Positions 11,397 to 17,719 are shown, counted from the first letter of the stretch. The stretch is 17,719 bases of DNA from Candidatus Sigynarchaeum calidifontis (GCA_030587475.2 JAUQYZ020000251.1:1-17719), one strand, 5' to 3'. The notes: a model not told the origin generated them from the sequence alone. Program-made: numbers and translations.

Positions 11397-11600
11397 ATCA
11401 AGTGCTGATTCTCCTCCTTGAGTCGCGTGTCGTGGGGAATGGGTTGCCGCTCCCTCGTGGCTACCACCCGTTTCGAGCCATTCCCGCGCCGCCGGTGCTC
11501 GTGTCGGGGAAATGCGCCGTGATCCGCATGAGATCGTGATCGAGAGGATCTGCAGGGCGTGTCGCACCATGCCGGGCTAGGTACCGGTAGGTAGAACCGG

Positions 11601-11674
11601 GCGGGCGTCATATAGTGGCAGTATGTGGCGTCGCCAGCGCTGACACGGGGGTTCGAGTCCCCCCGCTCGCACCA
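11601..11674 (+). tRNA. trnG: tRNA-Gly(GCC), C33, encoded CCA
   Basis: Acceptor GCGGGCG/CGCTCGC, loop TC-GCC-AG, T arm GGGGG-TTCGAGT-CCCCC, ACCA. Confidence 0.9.
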
Positions 11675-11689
11675 TCGCTTCCCACGCGC

Positions 11690-11763
11690 GCGTCGGTCGT
11701 CCAACGGCAGGGCCCGGGGCCTCCAACCCCGTGACGAGGGATCATCCCCCTCCCGTCGCACCA
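11690..11763 (+). tRNA. trnG: tRNA-Gly(TCC), atypical (C33, T-loop ATCATCC)
   Basis: Acceptor GCGTCGG/CCGTCGC with one mismatch, CGGGG-CCTCCAA-CCCCG, GAGGG/CCCTC T stem, ACCA. Confidence 0.75.
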
Positions 11764-11778
11764 TCTACCATGCACCGC

Positions 11779-11852
11779 GCTCCCGTGGTCTAACCGGCAA
11801 GGATGCCAGCTTCTCAGGCTGCGAGGTCCGGGTTCAACTCCCGGCAGGAGCA
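11779..11852 (+). tRNA. trnE: tRNA-Glu(CTC)
   Basis: GCTCCCG/CAGGAGC, CAGC-TTCTCAG-GCTG, CCGGG-TTCAACT-CCCGG. Confidence 0.85.
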
Positions 11853-11888
11853 CGACCACGCGACACTAAACGACCTAACGCGACACGA

Positions 11889-11964
11889 GCTTCCATGCTC
11901 TAGCGGCCAAGGAACTTGGACTTTCAATCCACGTGCGCGGGTTCAAATCCCGCTGGAAGCTCCA
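11889..11964 (+). tRNA. trnE: tRNA-Glu(TTC)
   Basis: GCTTCCA/TGGAAGC, TGGA-CTTTCAA-TCCA, GCGGG-TTCAAAT-CCCGC, TCCA. Confidence 0.9.
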
Positions 11965-11974
11965 CTCAAAGAAA

Positions 11975-12050
11975 GGCCCGTTCGGATAGCCCGGTAATCC
12001 ACCTGGCCGTGGCCCAGGCGTCGGACGTTCAAATCGTCCACGGGTCACCA
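11975..12050 (+). tRNA. trnH: tRNA with GTG anticodon (His), atypical (C33, A73, no encoded G-1)
   Basis: GGCCCGT/ACGGGTC, CCTGG-CCGTGGC-CCAGG, GGACG-TTCAAAT-CGTCC, ACCA. Confidence 0.78.
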
Positions 12051-12063
12051 ATATCACCACCAC

Positions 12064-12136
12064 ACCCCCGTAATTCAGCGGCCCAGAAGTCGGGGCCTTG
12101 AACCCCGGAACCGTGGTTCGAATCCACGCGGGGGTA
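12064..12136 (+). tRNA. trnQ: tRNA-Gln(TTG), C33
   Basis: ACCCCCG/CGGGGGT, CGGGG-CCTTGAA-CCCCG, CGTGG-TTCGAAT-CCACG. Confidence 0.88.
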
Positions 12137-12153
12137 TGACACGCCAGCAGAAC

Positions 12154-12229
12154 TGCCCCGTGATGTAACCGGCAAACAGGCGCGCCCCTGAAGCACGCAA
12201 TGGCGGTTCGAGCCCGCTCGGGGCAACCA
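12154..12229 (+). tRNA. trnQ: tRNA-Gln(CTG), C33
   Basis: TGCCCCG/CGGGGCA, CGCGC-CCCTGAA-GCACG, GGCGG-TTCGAGC-CCGCT, ACCA. Confidence 0.85.
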
Positions 12230-12292
12230 ACCCGGCCATGACGACAAACGAGCAAACCAACCAAGTAGCGAAAAAATGCATCAACAACCGGC

Positions 12293-12366
12293 GAGGTGGT
12301 ACGATAACGGCAGTCTCGCGGTCTCCAGAACTGCGGGCGTGGGTTCAACTCCTGCCCACCTCACCA
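12293..12366 (+). tRNA. trnW: tRNA-Trp(CCA), intronless
   Basis: GAGGTGG/CCACCTC, GCGGT-CTCCAGA-ACTGC, T loop TTCAACT, ACCA. Confidence 0.85.
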
Positions 12367-12738
12367 ACAAACCAAGCGTGAACGAAATGGCAGCACGGTT
12401 AGCGTTGAAATCAACAATCCCCACGCGGCCATCGGTCGCGGTGGTGTCCTATAGCACGAGGCAGCCCATGCAAGCCAGCAGCGCGCTGAAGGTGGTCGAC
12501 GTGATTTCAAGCATCGCCGGTGATGCACGGCTCGATTTTCCCTCGGCATATCTCGTCCCGCCATTCACGGCCGAGCCGGGGTCCCTCGCGGCCTATCGCC
12601 GCTGCTTGCCGGCACCAAAGCCATCGAGACGATCCCCGAACGGCGGCGCCGCCACGATCTTTTCTTTACGCCATGGTTCACGTGAGGTCAGTTATCTTCA
12701 AAAATATCGATTCTCTTGGCTATTCCGGCAATCTTTCT

Positions 12739-12757
12739 CGAAAAAGTTTATATATCG
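12739..12757 (+). promoter_or_regulatory. Second BRE-TATA promoter within the array
   Basis: CGAAAAAGTTTATATATCG, a copy of the 11206 motif. Confidence 0.65.
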
Positions 12758-12988
12758 GTGTCGATATCAATGATCTTGCAATTCAAATGAAAAAGAATTA
12801 CCACAAACCAAAATGGTGACCCGACCAAGAGACAACGAACGAGATCGCCTGCTAGCAAGAGACGATACCGGCACCACCGAGCACGGCCGGAGACGGCTAG
12901 CAGGGGATCGCTTGCCCGCAACGGGCACGATCCAGGCTTTCTACCCACCAGGACGATCAAGACCGTACCACGCGCCCAATGACACGAC

Positions 12989-13065
12989 GGGAGTGTCGTC
13001 CAACTTCGGCAAGACGCCAGGCCGTTAACCTGGACATGCAGGTTCGACTCCTGCCACTTCCGCCA
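12989..13065 (+). tRNA. trnN: tRNA-Asn(GTT), C33
   Basis: GGGAGTG/CACTTCC, CCAGG-CCGTTAA-CCTGG, GCAGG-TTCGACT-CCTGC, GCCA. Confidence 0.9.
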
Positions 13066-13083
13066 CCCGATCCCATTATCCAT

Positions 13084-13207
13084 GCGCCAGTAGCTTAGCA
13101 CATGATCTCCATCCCGTCCTTGCCAAGCGAAGTGCCACGGAGATTACATCGGATAAAGCATTTGTTTCACGAGCAAATAATCGTTGGTTCGATTCCAACC
13201 TGGCGCA
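13084..13207 (+). tRNA. trnV: tRNA-Val(CAC) with a ~50-nt structured D-loop insertion (about 13100-13148) carrying the repeated RNA motif
   Basis: GCGCCAG/CTGGCGC, D stem GCTT/AAGC, TTTGT-TTCACGA-GCAAA, GTTGG-TTCGATT-CCAAC; insert closed by ATCTCC/GGAGAT. Confidence 0.82.
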
Positions 13208-13222
13208 TCAATTTTTCTCCTT

Positions 13223-13296
13223 GGAAGCGTGGTGTAACGGCAGCACTTCGCACTGTCAGCGCGAGAATCGGGGTTAAATTCCCCGCGCTTCCGCCA
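13223..13296 (+). tRNA. trnD: tRNA-Asp(GTC), T-loop TTAAATT
   Basis: GGAAGCG/CGCTTCC, TCGCA-CTGTCAG-CGCGA, CGGGG/CCCCG, GCCA. Confidence 0.85.
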
Positions 13297-13594
13297 CCAT
13301 CGCTCGTTCGTGGGCTAAAATCGTTCTCCCCCCATTCCACGAAAAACATTAGTAATGGAGCGTCGATGGATATTCTTGGTTGATAACATGTGTGCAAATC
13401 GGTTTGACAAAAGCGCCGAGAATGAAGTCCGCAAGTAACAAATTTACACGGGAAATCTTCGCATGATGAAAGAAAAGCCGATAAATGGCACCGATCCTTC
13501 CCGATAGCCACGTGCCCAAGATATCTATCGGGGGCGACGTGAAGCGCCTGGCGAGAAAATTCGACGAGCAAAGGGGTTTCAAGGAGTCTTGAAT

Positions 13595-14155
13595 TCAATC
13601 GCACAACAAGCCGTTCCAGGTCTGGATGCATTCCTCCTTCGAGACATCGAATGCCTTCTCTACCTTGCTCCAGTCCGTTTGCGCCATGATGCCCTGCTTG
13701 TACCGCGAGTTGATGAACCGGGCGAGGTCGCGCGGTAATTGCTCGTTACTCGTGAAAATGTCGATGCAGAAAACGTGGTTCGATGCCTTGTCATAGACGA
13801 AGCCGGCTGTCTTCTCCGTGATGCTTATCAAGAGCTTGGCAGTCGGGGAAAAGAAGTAAAAATCGTTCATCATCTTCTCCTTGTGGATGAGGTAGCACGG
13901 GGAATCCCGGAGTTCCTTGATCGTGTCGATTGGTTTAACTCGCTGCAATTTCAAGGCCTCCTCCATGAAAGCCATGGTAAAAAGGACCACGTCGGCAATG
14001 GGCAAGGGGCGTGCAACAAGAACCGGGAACGGCACGACAACCCACTCGATCAACTTCGGCAGCAAGATGAGGCGTTCTGGCTGCCAGAAAAGCGACGCCA
14101 CCGGGTCATCGGGCAAGCCGAGGTCGTTCGCCTCGATTTCCAGCAGTTCGGCCAT
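13595..14155 (-). CDS. Hypothetical protein, antisense within the tRNA array
   Basis: Open frame with globular-protein composition (MAELLEIEANDLGLPDDP...ECIQTWNGLLCD). ATG 14155 preferred because the upstream ATG (14245) abuts tRNA-Phe. Confidence 0.7.
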   Translation of the reverse strand: MAELLEIEANDLGLPDDPVASLFWQPERLILLPKLIEWVVVPFPVLVARPLPIADVVLFTMAFMEEALKLQRVKPIDTIKELRDSPCYLIHKEKMMNDFYFFSPTAKLLISITEKTAGFVYDKASNHVFCIDIFTSNEQLPRDLARFINSRYKQGIMAQTDWSKVEKAFDVSKEECIQTWNGLLCD

Positions 14156-14246
14156 CGGTAACGAGACTTCATCCACCATGATCGTTGGATAGACCGAGGC
14201 CAAGGCATTTAATTGTATCATTGTGCGCTGGCAGACCATTATCATT

Positions 14247-14323
14247 GCAGTGATAGGCTAGCTGGGAAACCGCCCGGCTGAAAACCGGGACGTCGAGTGG
14301 TTCGAGTCCACTTCACTGCACCA
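14247..14323 (+). tRNA. trnF: tRNA-Phe(GAA)
   Basis: GCAGTGA/TCACTGC, CCCGG-CTGAAAA-CCGGG, AGTGG-TTCGAGT-CCACT, ACCA. Confidence 0.9.
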
Positions 14324-14348
14324 CCTTCCAATTCCACGTCGTACCTGC

Positions 14349-14428
14349 GAGCTCGTCGCCTAGCCAGGCAAGGGCAGCGGGCTTTTAACCCGTCTAGTTT
14401 GCGAGTTCAAATCTCGCCGAGCTCGCCA
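14349..14428 (+). tRNA. trnK: tRNA-Lys(TTT), 7-nt variable loop
   Basis: GAGCTCG/CGAGCTC, GCGGG-CTTTTAA-CCCGT, GCGAG-TTCAAAT-CTCGC, GCCA. Confidence 0.9.
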
Positions 14429-14477
14429 TTCTTTCTACAAATTCGAGGTGATTGACCGAGTAAGCCAACATCCACGA

Positions 14478-14610
14478 GGGCGGCCGCCGCCGTGCATCCG
14501 GGCCCGTGTTTCCACAACTGTCCTCTCCGAGAGGTGCCGTGGAAACTACATCGGCCACAGACTGTGAATCTGCATAGCCTCCTTGCCCGGCACAAAGGCG
14601 GCGGCCGCCC
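14478..14610 (+). ncRNA. Candidate Y-RNA-like ncRNA A (133 nt)
   Basis: Perfect 14-bp terminal stem GGGCGGCCGCCGCC/GGCGGCGGCCGCCC, inner GTG/CAC and CCGGG/CCCGG, conserved motif 14505-14554, anticodon-like arm CAGA-CTGTGAA-TCTG. Confidence 0.72.
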
Positions 14611-14691
14611 GTTATCCACCGCGATGATTCGAGGGGCACCACGACACGCGTGGCCCGATTCGGGCCACCACTTCTCTCCCCATTAGTCTTC

Positions 14692-14771
14692 GGGCTTGTC
14701 TCCTAGCCAGGCCAGGGAGGCGGACTCTTAATCCGCTCGTACCGCGAGTTCGATTCTCGCCAAGCCCACCA
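14692..14771 (+). tRNA. trnK: tRNA-Lys(CTT), 7-nt variable loop
   Basis: GGGCTTG/CAAGCCC, GCGGA-CTCTTAA-TCCGC, GCGAG-TTCGATT-CTCGC, ACCA. Confidence 0.9.
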
Positions 14772-15156
14772 AATATTCGTTGATACCCAAAATTCGCCGC
14801 CCGGAGCATTACCACCTGGAGTACGCGAGTGCAATGCTCGCCCGGGCGTGAAACGCTTGCCACCACGCGCCGCGGGGCGCTACCGGGGGGTTCTCACCGC
14901 CAAGTCCCCGTCCAGCGATCGCCTGCAGCGCCCGGTTCCAAGCAGGCTCGTTTTCCCCGGCGCGCCCGTCGGTGCGAGGCGCGCCGGAGCCCATCCCTTT
15001 CACGATCCATGCACGATTCTCGGTCCAAAAACGGCCAATTTCCCGCCGGAAGCACACGCCGCCTGTCGTAGCGGGTGAAAGCCCCGCGCAGGCGAACATG
15101 GATGCATCGGGCATCCAGGTTACCAACAACTGCGACCCACCCGGTCGCATTCCCCC

Positions 15157-15301
15157 GCATAGACGCAGCCGTGGACACGCGGAAGGGGGCCACGTGTTTC
15201 TGCATCCTGTCCTTCGCAAGGAGGTGCCGCGGAAACTACATCGTCACTCGAAAAGACGCTCCGGCCCCACACCGCGCCACAAGGGCTGTCTCGTGCAACC
15301 A
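15157..15301 (+). ncRNA. Candidate Y-RNA-like ncRNA B (~145 nt, ends in ACCA)
   Basis: Nested stems AGAC..AGCC/GGCTGTCT, GTGG/CCAC, GCGG/CCGC, GGGGCC/GGCCCC; conserved motif 15193-15243 with a compensatory change relative to ncRNA A and a GCAA tetraloop. Confidence 0.72.
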
Positions 15302-15357
15302 ATTTTTCGCACGTGATGGAAAACAACGACAGCACCAATCGCAACACCTGCGAAACG

Positions 15358-15379
15358 ACTGTCCTCGAACAAGAGGTGA
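15358..15379 (+). promoter_or_regulatory. Shine-Dalgarno (GAGGTGA) of the Ro60 gene inside a copy of the motif's apical hairpin
   Basis: ACTGT-CCTC-GAACAA-GAGG-TGA, about 10 nt before ATG 15389; compare AACTGT-CCTC-TCCGA-GAGG-TGCC in ncRNA A. Confidence 0.6.
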
Positions 15380-15388
15380 AAAAACAAT

Positions 15389-16948
15389 ATGGCAAGAAGC
15401 AAGTTCGGCAAGAAGGCTTCGATCGCGACCGACTATGGCGACGCTGACACCAGGAACTACGAGGCCTTCCCTGCCTGGTCGATGCCGCTCGACGAGCAAT
15501 TCCGCCAGCTCGCCTTCAACGGCATCATCGCGCACCAGTTCTACTGCAGCGAGGACGAGATCCTCCGGAGGGGCATGGGCATCATCGACAAGTTCGTCAA
15601 GGAAAACCCGGCGAAAGCGCTCGAGATCGCCGCGACCGCGCGCAACGAGGGCTTCATCCGTTCGGTCAACATCACCACGCTCGCCAAGGCAAGCACCAGC
15701 ACCGGGGCATTCAAGGAGTACTTCGACAAGATCGTCCTCACCCCGCGGGACATGGTGCAGTTCATCGACGTGATGCGCGCGAGCCGCGGCCTCGGCCGTG
15801 CCATCAAGGAGACCATGAACAAGTGGGTCGCGGCCAAGCTCGACGAGTTCTGGGCGATCAAGTATCGCAACCAGCTCCAGGACAGCATCCGGCTCGGTCA
15901 CGCCAAGTTCGACGACGAGGCCAAGGCCATGCTCGCCGACTATGTCATGGAGAACGGCGAGCAGGCGAAGCGCGACGCCATCGTGGCACGCTTCCCGGCC
16001 ATCAACGCGGTTGAAATGCTCAAGCGCATCAACCCGCTCGTCGACGAGGGTCGCGCCATCGATCTCATCACCGCGGCCCGCCTCGATTGGAACGTGGTCA
16101 AGGGCATCTTCCACCCGACCCCGGACATCTGGAAGGCCCTCGCGGAGCAGATGTCGGCCATTGCCCTCGTCCAGAACATCGCGTCGATCGAGAGGAACGC
16201 GGGCGCCGACTTCGCGCTCGATATCGTCAAGCGCAAGGTCACCGCGGAGTTTCTCAGGCGCGGCAAGGTCTTCCCGTTCACCCTCGCGCAGGCCTACATG
16301 CACGTCAACGACCGAGCCCTCAAGTCCGCCATCGGCAAGGTGCTCGACTCGCTGGCCCTCGCGCACGACTTCAGCAAGCTCGGCCGCGTCGCCGTGTGCC
16401 CGGACGTCAGCGGCTCGATGACCAGCCCGAGCTTCATCAACATCGTTATGCAACGTGCAAGCGGCAAAGGTGGCAAAGGTGACATCCCGGAGGGCAGCAT
16501 GCACGTGCCCATCCAGGTCGCGGCCATGATCGCGGGCATCCTCGCCGGCGCCACCCGCCACTCGCGGCTCCTCGCGTGGGACACCGAGGTCATGGACGAG
16601 CGCGCCCTCTTCGGCAAGGACAAGGAGTGGCGCACCCCGACCCGCATCATGGAGCGACTCATGCGCATCACCGGCGGCGGCACCTTCATGGAGGCCCCGG
16701 TCAAGTACCTCGTCGAGCACCGCGTCGACGTCGACACGTTCGTCCTCGTCACCGACTCGGAGGAGTGGGGCGAGGGTTGGCTCGCCTACTGGAAGAAATA
16801 CAAGCAGTCGCACAAGGCCGCGCGGGCGTTCCTCGTCAGGGTCGACCTCTACCCGACCCGCCCGTTCGGTGGCGACGACTGCGAGCGGCTTGGCATCACG
16901 CAGATCTACGGCTTCAGCGAGATGGCCTTCAAGGTCATGCTCCAGTAA
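15389..16948 (+). CDS. rsr: Ro60/Rsr-like TROVE-domain RNA-binding protein with C-terminal vWA domain
   Basis: N-terminal 'NYEAFPAW', QFY, 'ARNEG.IRS', 'GLGRAIK..WV', 'IKYRN..D.IRLGH', 'ALVQNI', 'VFPF' TROVE motifs; MIDAS DVSGSM, GGT, VTDSE; 519 aa. Confidence 0.9.
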   Translation: MARSKFGKKASIATDYGDADTRNYEAFPAWSMPLDEQFRQLAFNGIIAHQFYCSEDEILRRGMGIIDKFVKENPAKALEIAATARNEGFIRSVNITTLAKASTSTGAFKEYFDKIVLTPRDMVQFIDVMRASRGLGRAIKETMNKWVAAKLDEFWAIKYRNQLQDSIRLGHAKFDDEAKAMLADYVMENGEQAKRDAIVARFPAINAVEMLKRINPLVDEGRAIDLITAARLDWNVVKGIFHPTPDIWKALAEQMSAIALVQNIASIERNAGADFALDIVKRKVTAEFLRRGKVFPFTLAQAYMHVNDRALKSAIGKVLDSLALAHDFSKLGRVAVCPDVSGSMTSPSFINIVMQRASGKGGKGDIPEGSMHVPIQVAAMIAGILAGATRHSRLLAWDTEVMDERALFGKDKEWRTPTRIMERLMRITGGGTFMEAPVKYLVEHRVDVDTFVLVTDSEEWGEGWLAYWKKYKQSHKAARAFLVRVDLYPTRPFGGDDCERLGITQIYGFSEMAFKVMLQ

Positions 16949-16977
16949 GCCGGCAAGCCGCCACGTCGAAAACCAGT

Positions 16978-16988
16978 TTCCTTTTTTT
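16978..16988 (+). terminator. Possible oligo-T terminator after the Ro60 gene
   Basis: TTTCCTTTTTTT about 30 nt past the stop codon. Confidence 0.35.
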
Positions 16989-17007
16989 CCCAACAACGAC
17001 TATCGAA

Positions 17008-17082
17008 GCAAGGATGGCCCAGTCGCCCGGCAGCGTCCTGATAAGGCGCCTCACGCAGGTTCAATCCCTGCTCCTTGCACCA
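17008..17082 (+). tRNA. trnI: tRNA-Ile(GAT), D-loop lacks GG
   Basis: GCAAGGA/TCCTTGC, GCGTC-CTGATAA-GGCGC, GCAGG-TTCAATC-CCTGC, ACCA. Confidence 0.82.
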
Positions 17083-17104
17083 ATCCCGCGTTTTATCGAT
17101 CCAC

Positions 17105-17177
17105 GGGTTCAGAGCTCGAGCGGCAGAGCAACGGTCCAGTAAACCGTTTGGTGTGGGTTCGAGCCCCACTGGGCCCC
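17105..17177 (+). tRNA. trnT: tRNA-Thr(AGT), atypical (A34, C33, G8)
   Basis: GGGTTCA/TGGGCCC, D stem GCTC/GAGC, ACGGT-CCAGTAA-ACCGT, GTGGG-TTCGAGC-CCCAC. Confidence 0.78.
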
Positions 17178-17217
17178 CTTGCATGCTCATCAAGAAAGCG
17201 GAACAAGTAGCAGTAAC

Positions 17218-17295
17218 GGGCTCGTAGTTCTAACCGGATAGAACGCTTGGCTCGCATCCGAGAGGCTTGGGGTTCGAGTCCCCACGAGTCCGCCA
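17218..17295 (+). tRNA. trnA: tRNA-Ala(CGC)
   Basis: GGGCTCG/CGAGTCC with G3:U70, CTTGG-CTCGCAT-CCGAG, TGGGG-TTCGAGT-CCCCA, GCCA. Confidence 0.88.
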
Positions 17296-17299
17296 ACAC

Positions 17300-17373
17300 G
17301 TGCGGGTAGTCTTAACCTGGCAAAACCACCGGTTTGCAACCGGATGACTCGGGGTTCAAATTTCAACCCAATA
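17300..17373 (+). pseudogene. Degenerate tRNA-Ala(TGC)
   Basis: CCGG-TTTGCAA-CCGG arm and GGTTCAAAT are intact, but the T stem and acceptor stem are largely unpaired. Confidence 0.6.
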
Positions 17374-17466
17374 TATAGGCTGGATGGATGTCCCCGCCCG
17401 TACACTTCTCGAGGAATCCATACGGGAGACTCGCCAGGCGGGTCCACATTGCAGCATTCTTTCAGC

Positions 17467-17545
17467 GGGGACGTGGTCTAGCGGCACATATGATCCCGGC
17501 TTCGGAAGCCGGTGCACGGCGGTTCGAATCCGCCCGTTCCCACCA
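17467..17545 (+). tRNA. trnP: tRNA-Pro(CGG)
   Basis: GGGGACG/CGTTCCC, CCGGC-TTCGGAA-GCCGG, GGCGG-TTCGAAT-CCGCC, ACCA. Confidence 0.9.
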
Positions 17546-17552
17546 AAACCAT

Positions 17553-17648
17553 GGAACCGTAGCTTAACCGGGAAAGTGGTTTCATCCACACCGACAGCCC
17601 CCGACCGAAGCTCGGGCGTTCGGCGATCGAGGCGCCGCGGTTCCACCA
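17553..17648 (+). tRNA. tRNA-like gene (GAA anticodon, C33) with a ~21-nt D-region insertion and T-loop ATCGAGG
   Basis: GGAACCG/CGGTTCC+ACCA, CCCGA-CCGAAGC-TCGGG, CGGCG-ATCGAGG-CGCCG; extra hairpin GTGG-TTTCAT-CCAC. Confidence 0.7.
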
Positions 17649-17653
17649 TTTCC

Positions 17654-17719
17654 GGGGCCGTATTCTAGCGGTCGAAGATCCGGGCTTTGGGAGCCCGATG
17701 TCGTTGGTTCGAATCCAAC
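17654..17719 (+). tRNA. trnP: tRNA-Pro(TGG), truncated by the window end
   Basis: GGGGCCG start, CGGGC-TTTGGGA-GCCCG, GTTGG-TTCGAAT-CCAAC. Confidence 0.85.

What the first reader, a model, noticed from the sequence alone, without database searches (positions are those of the whole stretch)
13084..16948. Candidate new Ro60 / Y-RNA-like system: one covarying RNA motif in four contexts around a TROVE gene
Seen in sequence: three full copies. Val insert: CATG ATCTCC ATCCCGT CCTTGC CAA GCGAAG TGCC AC GGAGAT TACATCGG (13101-13152). ncRNA A: CGTG TTTCCAC AACTGT CCTC TCCGA GAGG TGCC GTGGAAA C TACATCGG (14505-14554). ncRNA B: CGTG TTTCTGC ATCCTGT CCTTC GCAA GGAGG TGCC GCGGAAA C TACATCGT (15193-15244). 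A partial fourth copy is at 15358-15378. The stems vary while pairing is kept, and YGTCC, GTGCC and TACATCG stay fixed, which is the pattern of a protein-binding RNA element. Established: Ro60/Rsr binds Y RNAs, which are typically encoded next to rsr and are often tRNA mimics in bacteria (YrlA). Inference: this motif is the Ro60-binding module of an archaeal Y-RNA family. GUCC/UGCC loosely recalls the metazoan GUCC/UGAC Ro site but does not match the YrlA GNCGAA(N)G motif.
Basis: partly seen in the sequence, partly recalled or inferred. Interest (0 to 1): 0.95.

Follow-up and report, generated by a model that had tools for sequence, protein, structure and literature searches.

The report
Ro60-binding hairpin grafted into tRNA-like RNAs
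An Asgard archaeon carries, just upstream of its Ro60 (TROVE) gene, three small RNAs that share one conserved hairpin; this hairpin looks like the Ro60-docking stem of bacterial-type Y RNAs turned inside out and inserted into tRNA-shaped or rod-shaped RNAs, a layout I did not find described.

Summary
Three full copies sit at 13101-13153, 14504-14555 and 15192-15245, and a half-copy overlaps the TROVE ribosome-binding site. A covariance model finds 20 copies on 7 contigs. All lie on the TROVE strand, upstream of TROVE orthologues (54-89% identity) or in the same tRNA array. I found no other copy in this 5 Mb genome or in about 300 other Asgard genomes, and no structured one in the public-collection pattern scans. 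The outer helix covaries (97% paired; 5 of 8 pairs compensatory).

The new point concerns more distant Asgard TROVE genes. They are preceded by YrlA-like tRNA-mimic Y RNAs (Rfam YrlA hits below threshold). The 5'/3' terminal stem of those RNAs carries the same signature: GAGG-UGC-helix-UUACUUCG ... helix-A..GU-CCUC. The window motif is that module circularly permuted: the terminal helix is capped and the inner helix is open. It is inserted into a tRNA D-loop, at position 26, in place of an anticodon arm, or into rod-shaped RNAs.

It is a new variant of the Ro60/Y RNA kind, not a new system. This scan has noted archaeal Ro60/Y-like pairs before, on other DNA.

The parts
13085..13207 (+). tRNA-shaped Y-like RNA (cloverleaf with anticodon CAC) carrying the motif in its D-loop between positions 17 and 18. 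The 5' acceptor strand is GCGCCAG at 13085-13091. No CCA is encoded (TCA follows), and a T5 run comes after it.
   Evidence: ARAGORN and Rfam see only the 3' part; the full cloverleaf was read from the sequence and folded. Orthologues in L130, L015, L012 and L016 keep the cloverleaf through compensatory changes, but the anticodon changes (CAC, CAC, CAC, GUG, UGU). A normal tRNA-Val(CAC) exists at C82:1309-1386.
13101..13153 (+). Motif copy 1. P1 13105-13110 / 13139-13144; 5' loop ATCCCGT; P2 13118-13123 / 13127-13132; 3' loop TGCCAC; tail TACATCG 13145-13151.
   Evidence: Pattern; model R1 28.9 bits and R2 51 bits; anatomy.
14478..14611 (+). ncRNA A. A 14-15 bp terminal stem, a second 6-7 bp stem, then a junction that carries the motif hairpin and a variable hairpin (here an anticodon-arm look-alike, CAGA-CUGUGAA-UCUG).
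   Evidence: Single-sequence fold z = -5.6. Consensus fold of 5 orthologues has 14 pairs with compensatory changes.
14504..14555 (+). Motif copy 2. P1 14508-14515 / 14539-14546; 5' loop AACTGT; P2 14522-14526 / 14530-14534; 3' loop TGCC; tail TACATCG 14547-14553.
   Evidence: 77.3 bits; 68.1 bits.
14612..14691 (+). Remnant of a fourth motif-bearing tRNA chimera. The 5' part and the 3' end (GGGCCACCAC) align with L015 1377-1512, but the motif, anticodon arm and T arm are deleted.
   Evidence: Pairwise alignment.
15157..15296 (+). ncRNA B. A long interrupted basal rod, almost invariant between loci, with the motif hairpin and a small variable hairpin at its apex. A T5 run follows at 15303-15307.
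   Evidence: Fold; consensus fold of 5 orthologues.
15192..15245 (+). Motif copy 3. P1 15196-15203 / 15229-15236; 5' loop ATCCTGT; P2 15211-15215 / 15220-15224; 3' loop TGCC; tail TACATCG 15237-15243.
   Evidence: 72.6 bits; 62.7 bits.
15360..15379 (+). Leader half-motif UGUCCUC-GAACAA-GAGGUGA. It reproduces P2 and the flanking loop bases of the motif, and its 3' strand is the Shine-Dalgarno sequence of the TROVE gene.
   Evidence: Sequence. The same hairpin, with varying loops, occurs in L116, L015, L012, L014 and L016, and a similar one in L018.
15389..16948 (+). Ro60/Rsr-type protein gene (TROVE ring plus vWA domain with the MIDAS motif DVSGS at residue 339).
   Evidence: Pfam TROVE and vWA_Ro60 above their cut-offs. 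Full-length match to D. radiodurans Rsr 2NVO, E 6.5e-10. AlphaFold2 model with pLDDT 88.5 matches Ro60 structures at TM 0.72-0.77. MIDAS motif.

Best explanation
The motif is the docking module for the neighbouring Ro60 (TROVE) protein, shown in a capped-hairpin topology.

In other Asgard lineages the TROVE gene is preceded by YrlA-type Y RNAs. These are circularly permuted tRNA mimics whose 5' and 3' ends pair into a stem reading 5'-GAGG-UGC-[8-9 bp helix]-UUACUUCG ... [helix]-A..GU-CCUC-3'.

In the window's clade the same helix / asymmetric loop / helix module is circularly permuted. The GAGG/CCUC helix is closed by a 3-4 nt loop and the other helix opens into the host RNA. The result is [P1]-AAC-UGU-CCUC-loop-GAGG-UGCC-[P1']-UACAUCG.

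This hairpin has been placed into several scaffolds:
- the D-loop of a cloverleaf tRNA body (window 13085-13207);
- position 26/27, or the place of the anticodon arm, in other tRNA bodies (seen in sister loci, with a deleted remnant in the window);
- two rod-shaped RNAs (ncRNA A and B).

What is shown: the motif, its covariation, its exclusive linkage to TROVE, the Ro60 fold of the protein, and the permuted correspondence.

What is inferred, by analogy with bacterial and animal Y RNAs: Ro60 binds the conserved P2 / internal loop / tail, and the variable scaffold acts as the effector end that tethers Ro60 to tRNA-binding or other factors and/or gates its RNA-binding cavity. A half-motif over the TROVE Shine-Dalgarno sequence would let free Ro60 repress its own translation.

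A tandem duplication of a YrlA-like gene would produce the permuted form directly.
For: 1. Conservation and structure. Model R2 finds 20 copies at 45.9 bits or more and nothing else below E = 1. 97.4% of cells pair and 5 of 8 P1 pairs are compensatory.

2. Linkage.
- Every copy is on the TROVE strand, within about 2.3 kb upstream of a TROVE orthologue or in the same tRNA array.
- Only the three window copies occur in the 5 Mb genome.
- No copy was found in 150 relatives or in 150 genomes spread over the phylum.
- In 185,579 species genomes the strict pattern gave 76 hits. The four best-scoring of them, which I inspected, lie inside long ORFs; three share a sequence that looks like DnaE (my reading, not tested).

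3. The partner is a Ro60.

4. Distant Asgard TROVE genes (23-39% identity) have RNAs directly upstream that hit Rfam YrlA over the whole model at 45, 35 and 27 bits (gathering score 69).
- Their termini carry GAGGUG(C/U)-helix-UUACUUCG and helix-A..G(U/C)-CCUC.
- An HMM of the hairpin copies hits 7 of 10 permuted constructs of those termini (E 1e-4 to 0.06), 0 of 10 in natural order, and 1 of 200 shuffles at E = 1.4.
- The permuted constructs fold into the same two-helix shape.

5. The Rfam YrlA consensus has the same layout: cggCga-AUGCu-uggGgaa-CUAc ... uucCcca-aAaAcUuG-ucGccg. Published work places the Ro60 site on the 5' strand of this stem (PMC4201824; 10.1101/312249).

6. The tRNA bodies behave as scaffolds, not decoders. 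Their stems covary while the anticodon changes (CAC, GUG, UGU) and CCA is not kept. A normal tRNA-Val(CAC) exists elsewhere in the genome.

7. L012 5410-5515 has acceptor, D arm, motif and T arm. That is a YrlA layout with the acceptor stem open and the Ro stem closed.
Against: - No binding, expression or processing data.
- The published bacterial recognition motif GNCGAAN0-1G and the animal GGUCCGA are not present. The equivalent strand here reads GAGGUGC.
- No Rfam Y_RNA or YrlA hit in the window, even at E = 10, and none in the genome.
- The permuted similarity is only modest by sequence score (6-15 bits) and rests on 10 RNAs from 5 loci.
- ncRNA A and B also have a second conserved basal stem (GCCGUG.../...CACAARGGC). 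It sits where classical Y RNAs bind Ro60 and could be the real site in those two RNAs.
- GAGGUG is also the archaeal Shine-Dalgarno sequence, so part of the conservation might reflect something other than Ro60.
Confidence: 0.7

Rival explanations
1. The hairpin is an intervening sequence (a non-canonical archaeal intron or another processing element). It is cut out of the tRNA-Val precursor and the other RNAs, leaving a working tRNA and perhaps a free or circular small RNA.
For: It interrupts an otherwise complete cloverleaf at D-loop position 17/18, and removing it would leave a normal D-loop, AGCAC-GGAUA. Archaea do have introns at non-canonical tRNA positions, and permuted pre-tRNAs are processed this way (background; discussion in 10.1101/312249).
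Against: - I could draw no bulge-helix-bulge with either strand arrangement. The 5' flank varies in length and sequence (CACAUG, ACACG, CAUAACACGCG...), while the 3' flank UACAUCG is fixed even in copies outside tRNAs.
- The anticodon of the host is not conserved and CCA is not kept. A clean tRNA-Val(CAC) exists elsewhere.
- The same hairpin replaces an anticodon arm or sits in rod-shaped RNAs, where splicing would serve no purpose.
Confidence: 0.08
2. The module is recognised by something other than Ro60 that merely travels with the island. Candidates are another protein (for example an RNA ligase or nuclease of the locus) or the 3' end of 16S rRNA, since GAGGUG is a Shine-Dalgarno mimic.
For: GAGGUGA in the leader is the TROVE ribosome-binding site. 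One sister locus has an Rnl2-type RNA ligase and a PIN nuclease right after TROVE. The known Ro60 recognition sequences are not matched (PMC4201824).
Against: TROVE is the only protein gene shared by all loci. The ORFs inside the arrays are unrelated to one another, and the ligase/PIN pair is seen in one locus only. In the hairpin GAGG is paired, not exposed. The module occupies the position of the Ro60 site in YrlA-like relatives.
Confidence: 0.12
3. It is a short mobile or repeated element, or a small self-cleaving ribozyme, that has spread within the tRNA array and has no link to Ro60.
For: There are several copies per locus in different host RNAs, and one copy was lost by deletion in the window.
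Against: No ribozyme or other Rfam family matches. Copies are confined to the TROVE-proximal part of the array and to TROVE-bearing contigs. Orthologous copies sit at orthologous positions and evolve by compensatory change, unlike recent repeats.
Confidence: 0.03

Closest known systems
YrlA-type bacterial and phage Y RNAs with Rsr/Ro60 (Rfam RF02553; Chen et al. 2014, PMC4201824; Wang et al. 2018, 10.1101/312249)
   Same: Both are encoded next to a Ro60 gene, with several RNAs per locus. Both are modular: a helix / asymmetric loop / helix module (UGC on one strand, an A-rich ...UG/GU stretch on the other, then UAC-type linker bases) joined to a tRNA-like body with D and T arms. The module joins the tRNA body at the anticodon-stem / position-26 side in some copies.
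   Different: The topology is inverted. In YrlA the RNA ends lie in the Ro stem and the acceptor stem is closed. Here the Ro-type stem is closed and the acceptor stem (or a separate rod) carries the ends, sometimes with an encoded CCA. The module also occurs in a D-loop and in RNAs that are not tRNA-like. GNCGAAN0-1G is replaced by GAGGUGC. There is no Rfam hit.
Sub-threshold YrlA-like RNAs upstream of other Asgard TROVE genes
   Same: They share the sequence signature GAGG-UG(C/U)-helix-U(U)AC(U/A)UCG and helix-A..G(U/C)-CCUC. They lie directly upstream of TROVE on the same strand.
   Different: Those RNAs keep the classical terminal-stem topology and a permuted tRNA body (anticodon-like arm, T arm, capped acceptor with an internal GCCA, D arm). 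Their TROVE proteins are only 23-39% identical to the window's.
Animal Ro60-Y RNA particles (X. laevis Ro/Y RNA structure 1YVP; human Y1-Y5)
   Same: The protein fold matches (TM 0.72-0.77). There are several small partner RNAs, each with a conserved protein-binding helix next to a loop or bulge and a variable effector part.
   Different: The animal site GGUCCGA/UUGACU lies in the terminal stem. Animal Y RNAs have no tRNA body, and the sequences are unrelated.
Circularly permuted tRNA genes (Cyanidioschyzon, some archaea)
   Same: The relation between the two Asgard forms is a circular permutation of a tRNA-shaped RNA.
   Different: Those are precursors processed into ordinary tRNAs. Here I see no sign of such processing, and the extra stem is a conserved protein-type site.

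Membership tests
Y RNA (Ro60-associated ncRNA class) | Encoded adjacent to a Ro60/TROVE gene (the criterion used for bacteria) | tested here: met
   All 20 copies lie upstream of TROVE or in its array. No copy elsewhere.
Y RNA (Ro60-associated ncRNA class) | Ro60 site lies in a long stem formed by the 5' and 3' ends | tested here: not met
   The conserved module is an internal capped hairpin. ncRNA A and B do have long terminal stems, but the module is not in them.
Y RNA (Ro60-associated ncRNA class) | Physically bound by Ro60 | not testable with these tools
   Needs EMSA, RIP or CLIP.
YrlA (Rfam RF02553) | Scores at or above the family's gathering score (69 bits) | tested here: not met
   No hit in the window at E up to 10 or in the genome at E up to 1. 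The distant Asgard relatives score 27-45 bits.
YrlA (Rfam RF02553) | tRNA-like domain with D and T arms | tested here: met
   Met for the 13085-13207 RNA, which has a full cloverleaf with covarying stems. Not met for ncRNA A and B.
YrlA (Rfam RF02553) | Closed acceptor stem, with the RNA ends in the Ro60-binding stem | tested here: not met
   The topology is the opposite.
YrlA (Rfam RF02553) | GNCGAAN0-1G on the 5' strand of the stem (PMC4201824) | tested here: not met
   The equivalent strand reads GAGGUGC in all copies.
Ro60/Rsr protein family | TROVE ring plus C-terminal vWA domain with a MIDAS motif | tested here: met
   Pfam PF05731 and PF25045 above their cut-offs. 2NVO aligned over residues 45-517. 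Model TM 0.72-0.77 to 1YVP, 9NEP and 2I91. DVSGS at residue 339.
Ro60/Rsr protein family | NCBIfam Rsr equivalog cut-off (900 bits) | tested here: not met
   48 bits. This is a divergent orthologue, not the bacterial equivalog.
Archaeal bulge-helix-bulge intron | Two 3-nt bulges on opposite strands, separated by a 4-bp helix, at the exon-intron junctions | tested here: not met
   Checked by inspection of the window copy and four orthologues in both arrangements. The flanks cannot form the central helix, and the 5' flank is variable.
Kink-turn (L7Ae site) | 3-nt bulge followed by tandem sheared G-A / A-G pairs | tested here: not met
   The base next to the conserved helix on the unbulged strand is U (..GU-CCUC), not A, and no GA follows UGC.

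The most novel reading that the evidence does not exclude
The hairpin turns otherwise complete tRNA bodies with an open acceptor end (some with encoded CCA) into Ro60 carriers. These RNAs sit inside an accessory island of 30 or more unusual tRNA genes, half of which have C33 in place of U33. On this reading the island is a tRNA-centred RNA-surveillance or anti-nuclease system. Ro60 would be delivered to tRNA-handling enzymes or to the translation apparatus by RNAs that may even be aminoacylated. Ro60 would also titrate its own synthesis through the leader half-motif.
Probability: 0.12. Interest if true: 0.9.

Novelty: new variant of a known kind. Interest (0 to 1): 0.72.

Why it matters
I found no paper describing Ro60/Y RNA particles in archaea; they have been studied in animals and bacteria. 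The only published archaeal-side mention I found is Ro60 genes in Asgard viruses.

This locus shows two things.
- Asgard archaea, the closest prokaryotic relatives of eukaryotes, carry Ro60 genes with dedicated partner RNAs.
- The presumed Ro60-docking module is portable. The same helix-loop-helix works as a terminal stem in one lineage and as a capped hairpin in another, where it is inserted into tRNA D-loops, at position 26, in place of an anticodon arm, or into unrelated rods.

That yields a compact 45-50 nt candidate recognition element with invariant bases, well suited to binding and structural tests. It also offers a natural experiment on what the effector end of a Y RNA does. Last, it warns that covariance models tied to one topology (Rfam YrlA) will miss permuted relatives.

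The patchy distribution argues for horizontal spread rather than direct ancestry of the eukaryotic particle. TROVE was found in 5 of 400 Asgard genomes, on an accessory island, and virus-encoded copies are known.

Tried and rejected
- Rfam at gathering and at permissive thresholds gave only tRNAs in the region, with no Y_RNA, YrlA, ribozyme or intron family.
- The exact-pattern hit on contig C178 and the single hits in four relatives lack the outer helix or lie in ORFs, so I take them as chance.
- The strict pattern scan of 185,579 species genomes gave 76 hits. Sixteen reached E = 1 or better with R1 (13.8-31.4 bits); most of that score comes from the pattern itself. The four best lie inside long ORFs, three of them sharing a sequence that looks like DnaE.
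- The viral collection gave 8 pattern hits, none structured, and no close TROVE relative.
- Of 32 pattern hits in the metagenome scan, 28 were unstructured.
No expression evidence was obtained.
- Bulge-helix-bulge and kink-turn readings were checked by inspection and rejected.
- The ORFs inside the arrays (window 13595-14245 minus strand; L014 4266-5153) have no family hits and are not related to each other. They are variable cargo, not partners.
- The first MAFFT alignment of the copies (A1) put the outer helix out of register and was not used. The models were built from A2 and A3.
- The leader half-copy is not significant by covariance model (best 10.5 bits in L015). It stands only on conservation of position and sequence.

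Full report
**Observation.** The spaced pattern GTCC..GTGCC..TACATCG matches at 13116-13151, 14520-14553 and 15209-15243 and in none of 200 shuffles. Each copy has an outer helix P1 (6-8 bp), a 6-7 nt 5' loop ending in UGU, an inner helix P2 that begins CCU(C/U), a 3-4 nt cap, a 3' loop UGCC(NN), the return strand of P1, and the tail UACAUCG. Rfam finds only tRNAs in the region, even at E = 10.

**Genomic setting.** The window comes from an Asgard archaeon. The TROVE homologues that carry names are labelled Sigynarchaeota, Freyarchaeota and Promethearchaeota. From 11.6 kb onward the window is an array of at least 19 tRNA genes with the TROVE gene embedded in it.

**The protein is a Ro60.**
- Pfam TROVE and vWA_Ro60 score above their cut-offs.
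- It aligns over its full length with D. radiodurans Rsr, PDB 2NVO.
- An AlphaFold2 model (pLDDT 88.5) superposes on Ro60 structures at TM 0.72-0.77; the top hit is the Ro/Y RNA complex 1YVP.
- A MIDAS motif, DVSGS, is present at residue 339.
- It is divergent: 48 bits against the NCBIfam Rsr equivalog, whose cut-off is 900.

**Conservation and linkage.**
- Contigs that encode TROVE orthologues of 54-89% identity all carry the motif.
- A covariance model built from five copies (R1), then rebuilt from 17 (R2), finds 20 copies at 45.9 bits or more on 7 contigs, with nothing else below E = 1.
- All copies are on the TROVE strand.
- P1 covaries: 5 of 8 pairs are compensatory and 97.4% of cells pair, against about 50% when the partner is slid. 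UCC/GGA within P1, the first P2 pairs, UGU, UGC and UACAUC are invariant or nearly so.
- In the 5 Mb genome only the three window copies score.
- No copy was found in 150 relatives or in 150 genomes spread across the phylum.
- A motif-first pattern scan of metagenome contigs returned 32 hits, of which four contigs are structured. Three have TROVE directly downstream; the fourth is cut off right after the ncRNA-A copy, inside the same tRNA order.
- A scan of 185,579 species genomes gave 76 pattern hits. The four best-scoring, which I inspected, are coding-sequence coincidences inside long ORFs.

**What the motif corresponds to.** More distant Asgard TROVE genes (23-39% identity; L010, L017, L018, L019, L021) lack the hairpin. 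Each has one to three small RNAs directly upstream.

Three of these RNAs match Rfam YrlA over the whole model at 45, 35 and 27 bits, below the gathering score of 69. They are permuted tRNA mimics made of an anticodon-like arm, a T arm, a capped acceptor stem and a D arm.

Their ends read 5'-GAGG-UG(C/U)-[8-9 bp]-UUACUUCG ... [8-9 bp]-A..G(U/C)-CCUC-3'. Read from the 3' half round to the 5' half, this is the window motif: [helix]-A..GU-CCUC | GAGG-UGC-[helix]-UAC(A/U)UCG.

Three checks support the correspondence.
- A sequence HMM of the hairpin copies hits 7 of 10 such permuted constructs (E 1e-4 to 0.06), none of the 10 in natural order, and 1 of 200 shuffles at E = 1.4.
- The permuted constructs fold into the same two-helix shape with a free tail.
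- The Rfam YrlA consensus has the same layout (cggCga-AUGCu-uggGgaa-CUAc ... uucCcca-aAaAcUuG-ucGccg). The published work puts the Ro60 site on the 5' strand of exactly this stem (PMC4201824; 10.1101/312249).

The Asgard equivalent is GAGGUGC.

**The host RNAs.**

*(i) 13085-13207.* This is a full cloverleaf with the hairpin between D-loop positions 17 and 18, and G18G19 are kept.
- Orthologues in four other contigs keep every stem through compensatory changes.
- The anticodon is CAC in three, GUG in one and UGU in one, and the CCA end is not kept.
- A normal tRNA-Val(CAC) exists on contig C82.
- This is therefore a tRNA-shaped scaffold, not a decoder.

*(ii) Sister loci.* They hold tRNA bodies with the hairpin between the D arm and the anticodon arm (L015 1385-1512; L012 4475-4605). 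One has the hairpin in place of the anticodon arm (L012 5410-5515). That last RNA is a YrlA layout with the acceptor stem open and the Ro-type stem closed. The window keeps only a deleted remnant of such a gene, at 14612-14691.

*(iii) ncRNA A (14478-14611) and ncRNA B (15157-15296).* These are rods with long terminal stems supported by covariation. The hairpin sits at an internal junction beside a variable hairpin. They share a second conserved basal element, GCCGUG.../...CACAARGGC, of unknown role.

**Leader.** UGUCCUC-GAACAA-GAGGUGA at 15360-15379 reproduces P2 and its flanking loop bases and contains the TROVE Shine-Dalgarno sequence. The stem sequence recurs in five orthologous leaders with different loop sequences, and a similar hairpin precedes the L018 gene. 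Autoregulation by Ro60 is a reasonable inference, but it is not significant by model score.

**Mechanism.** The linkage, the covariation, the Ro60 fold and the permuted correspondence are shown. The rest is inferred by analogy with Y RNAs (10.1101/312249): Ro60 docks on the conserved P2 / loop / tail, and the variable body (tRNA-like or rod) recruits other factors or gates the Ro60 cavity. A tandem duplication of a terminal-form gene would create the permuted order in one step. Tandem Y RNAs do occur in L017-L019.

**Rivals.**
- *Intron.* This is unlikely. There is no bulge-helix-bulge, the 5' flanks vary, the conserved tail is present outside tRNAs, and the anticodon is not conserved.
- *A different ligand, or Shine-Dalgarno mimicry.* This cannot be excluded without binding data. 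TROVE is, however, the only gene common to all loci.
- *Repeat or ribozyme.* Nothing I ran supports this.

**Literature and earlier notes.** I found no paper describing archaeal Y RNAs. Ro60 genes have been noted in Asgard 'Nidhogg' viruses (10.1101/2021.07.29.454249). This scan's own notes report Ro60 with Y-like or YrlA-like RNAs in another Asgard genome and in archaeal viruses on other DNA. The pairing itself is therefore not new to the scan. The capped, permuted module grafted into tRNA bodies is.

**Verdict.** This is a real, conserved, TROVE-linked RNA module. It is best read as a new topological variant of the Ro60/YrlA system, and binding is still to be shown.

Noticed in passing
window 11601-17719 and genome contig C82: The arrayed tRNA genes differ from the scattered ones. 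16 of 30 array tRNAs have C33 instead of the near-universal U33, against 1 of 21 elsewhere in the genome. The same isoacceptors (Asn GUU, His GUG, Lys UUU, Gln) keep C33 in every orthologous array where they were called. Most array genes also encode CCA.
   Followed up: partly
window 17105-17178; L014 11204-11279: tRNA genes with A34 anticodons, Thr(AGU) and Ala(AGC). As far as I recall, such anticodons are typical of eukaryotes and rare in archaea.
   Followed up: no
window 11590-13300 versus relatives: The tRNA array was not found in three genomes of the same family or in 17 others of the order. TROVE is present in only 5 of 400 Asgard genomes. The genes flanking the array differ between contigs. 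Together this looks like an accessory, possibly mobile island.
   Followed up: partly
window 14772-15156: A GC-rich stretch between tRNA-Lys(CUU) and ncRNA B holds blocks conserved in four loci (for example CGCGCCGCGGGGCGC...CGATCGCC) and a T-arm-like hairpin, with some compensatory pairs. There is no Rfam hit. ncRNA B may be the 3' part of a larger structured RNA.
   Followed up: partly
window 14478-14500 / 14590-14611 and 15170-15190 / 15270-15296: ncRNA A and B share a second conserved basal element (5' GCCGUG.A.. and 3' ..CACAARGGC) that is absent from the tRNA chimeras. It may be a second protein site.
   Followed up: no
L014 7840-9686: In one sister locus an Rnl2-type RNA ligase, an RHH protein and a PIN nuclease follow TROVE. 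This recalls the bacterial rsr-rtcB linkage and the Ro60 plus RNA ligase pair of Asgard Nidhogg viruses.
   Followed up: no
L017 7733-7951, L018 7664-7904, L019 7403-7966, L010 1295-1460, L021 2830-3680 (minus strand): There are terminal-form Asgard Y RNAs, one to three in tandem per TROVE gene, some with TATA-like boxes upstream. The long ones keep an internal GCCA after the acceptor 3' strand, as expected of a permuted tRNA. They score below Rfam's YrlA threshold, so they would go unannotated.
   Followed up: partly
window 17553-17648: ARAGORN calls a 96-nt tRNA here (Trp CCA) with an expanded D region. It has no copy of the motif. I did not examine it further.
   Followed up: no
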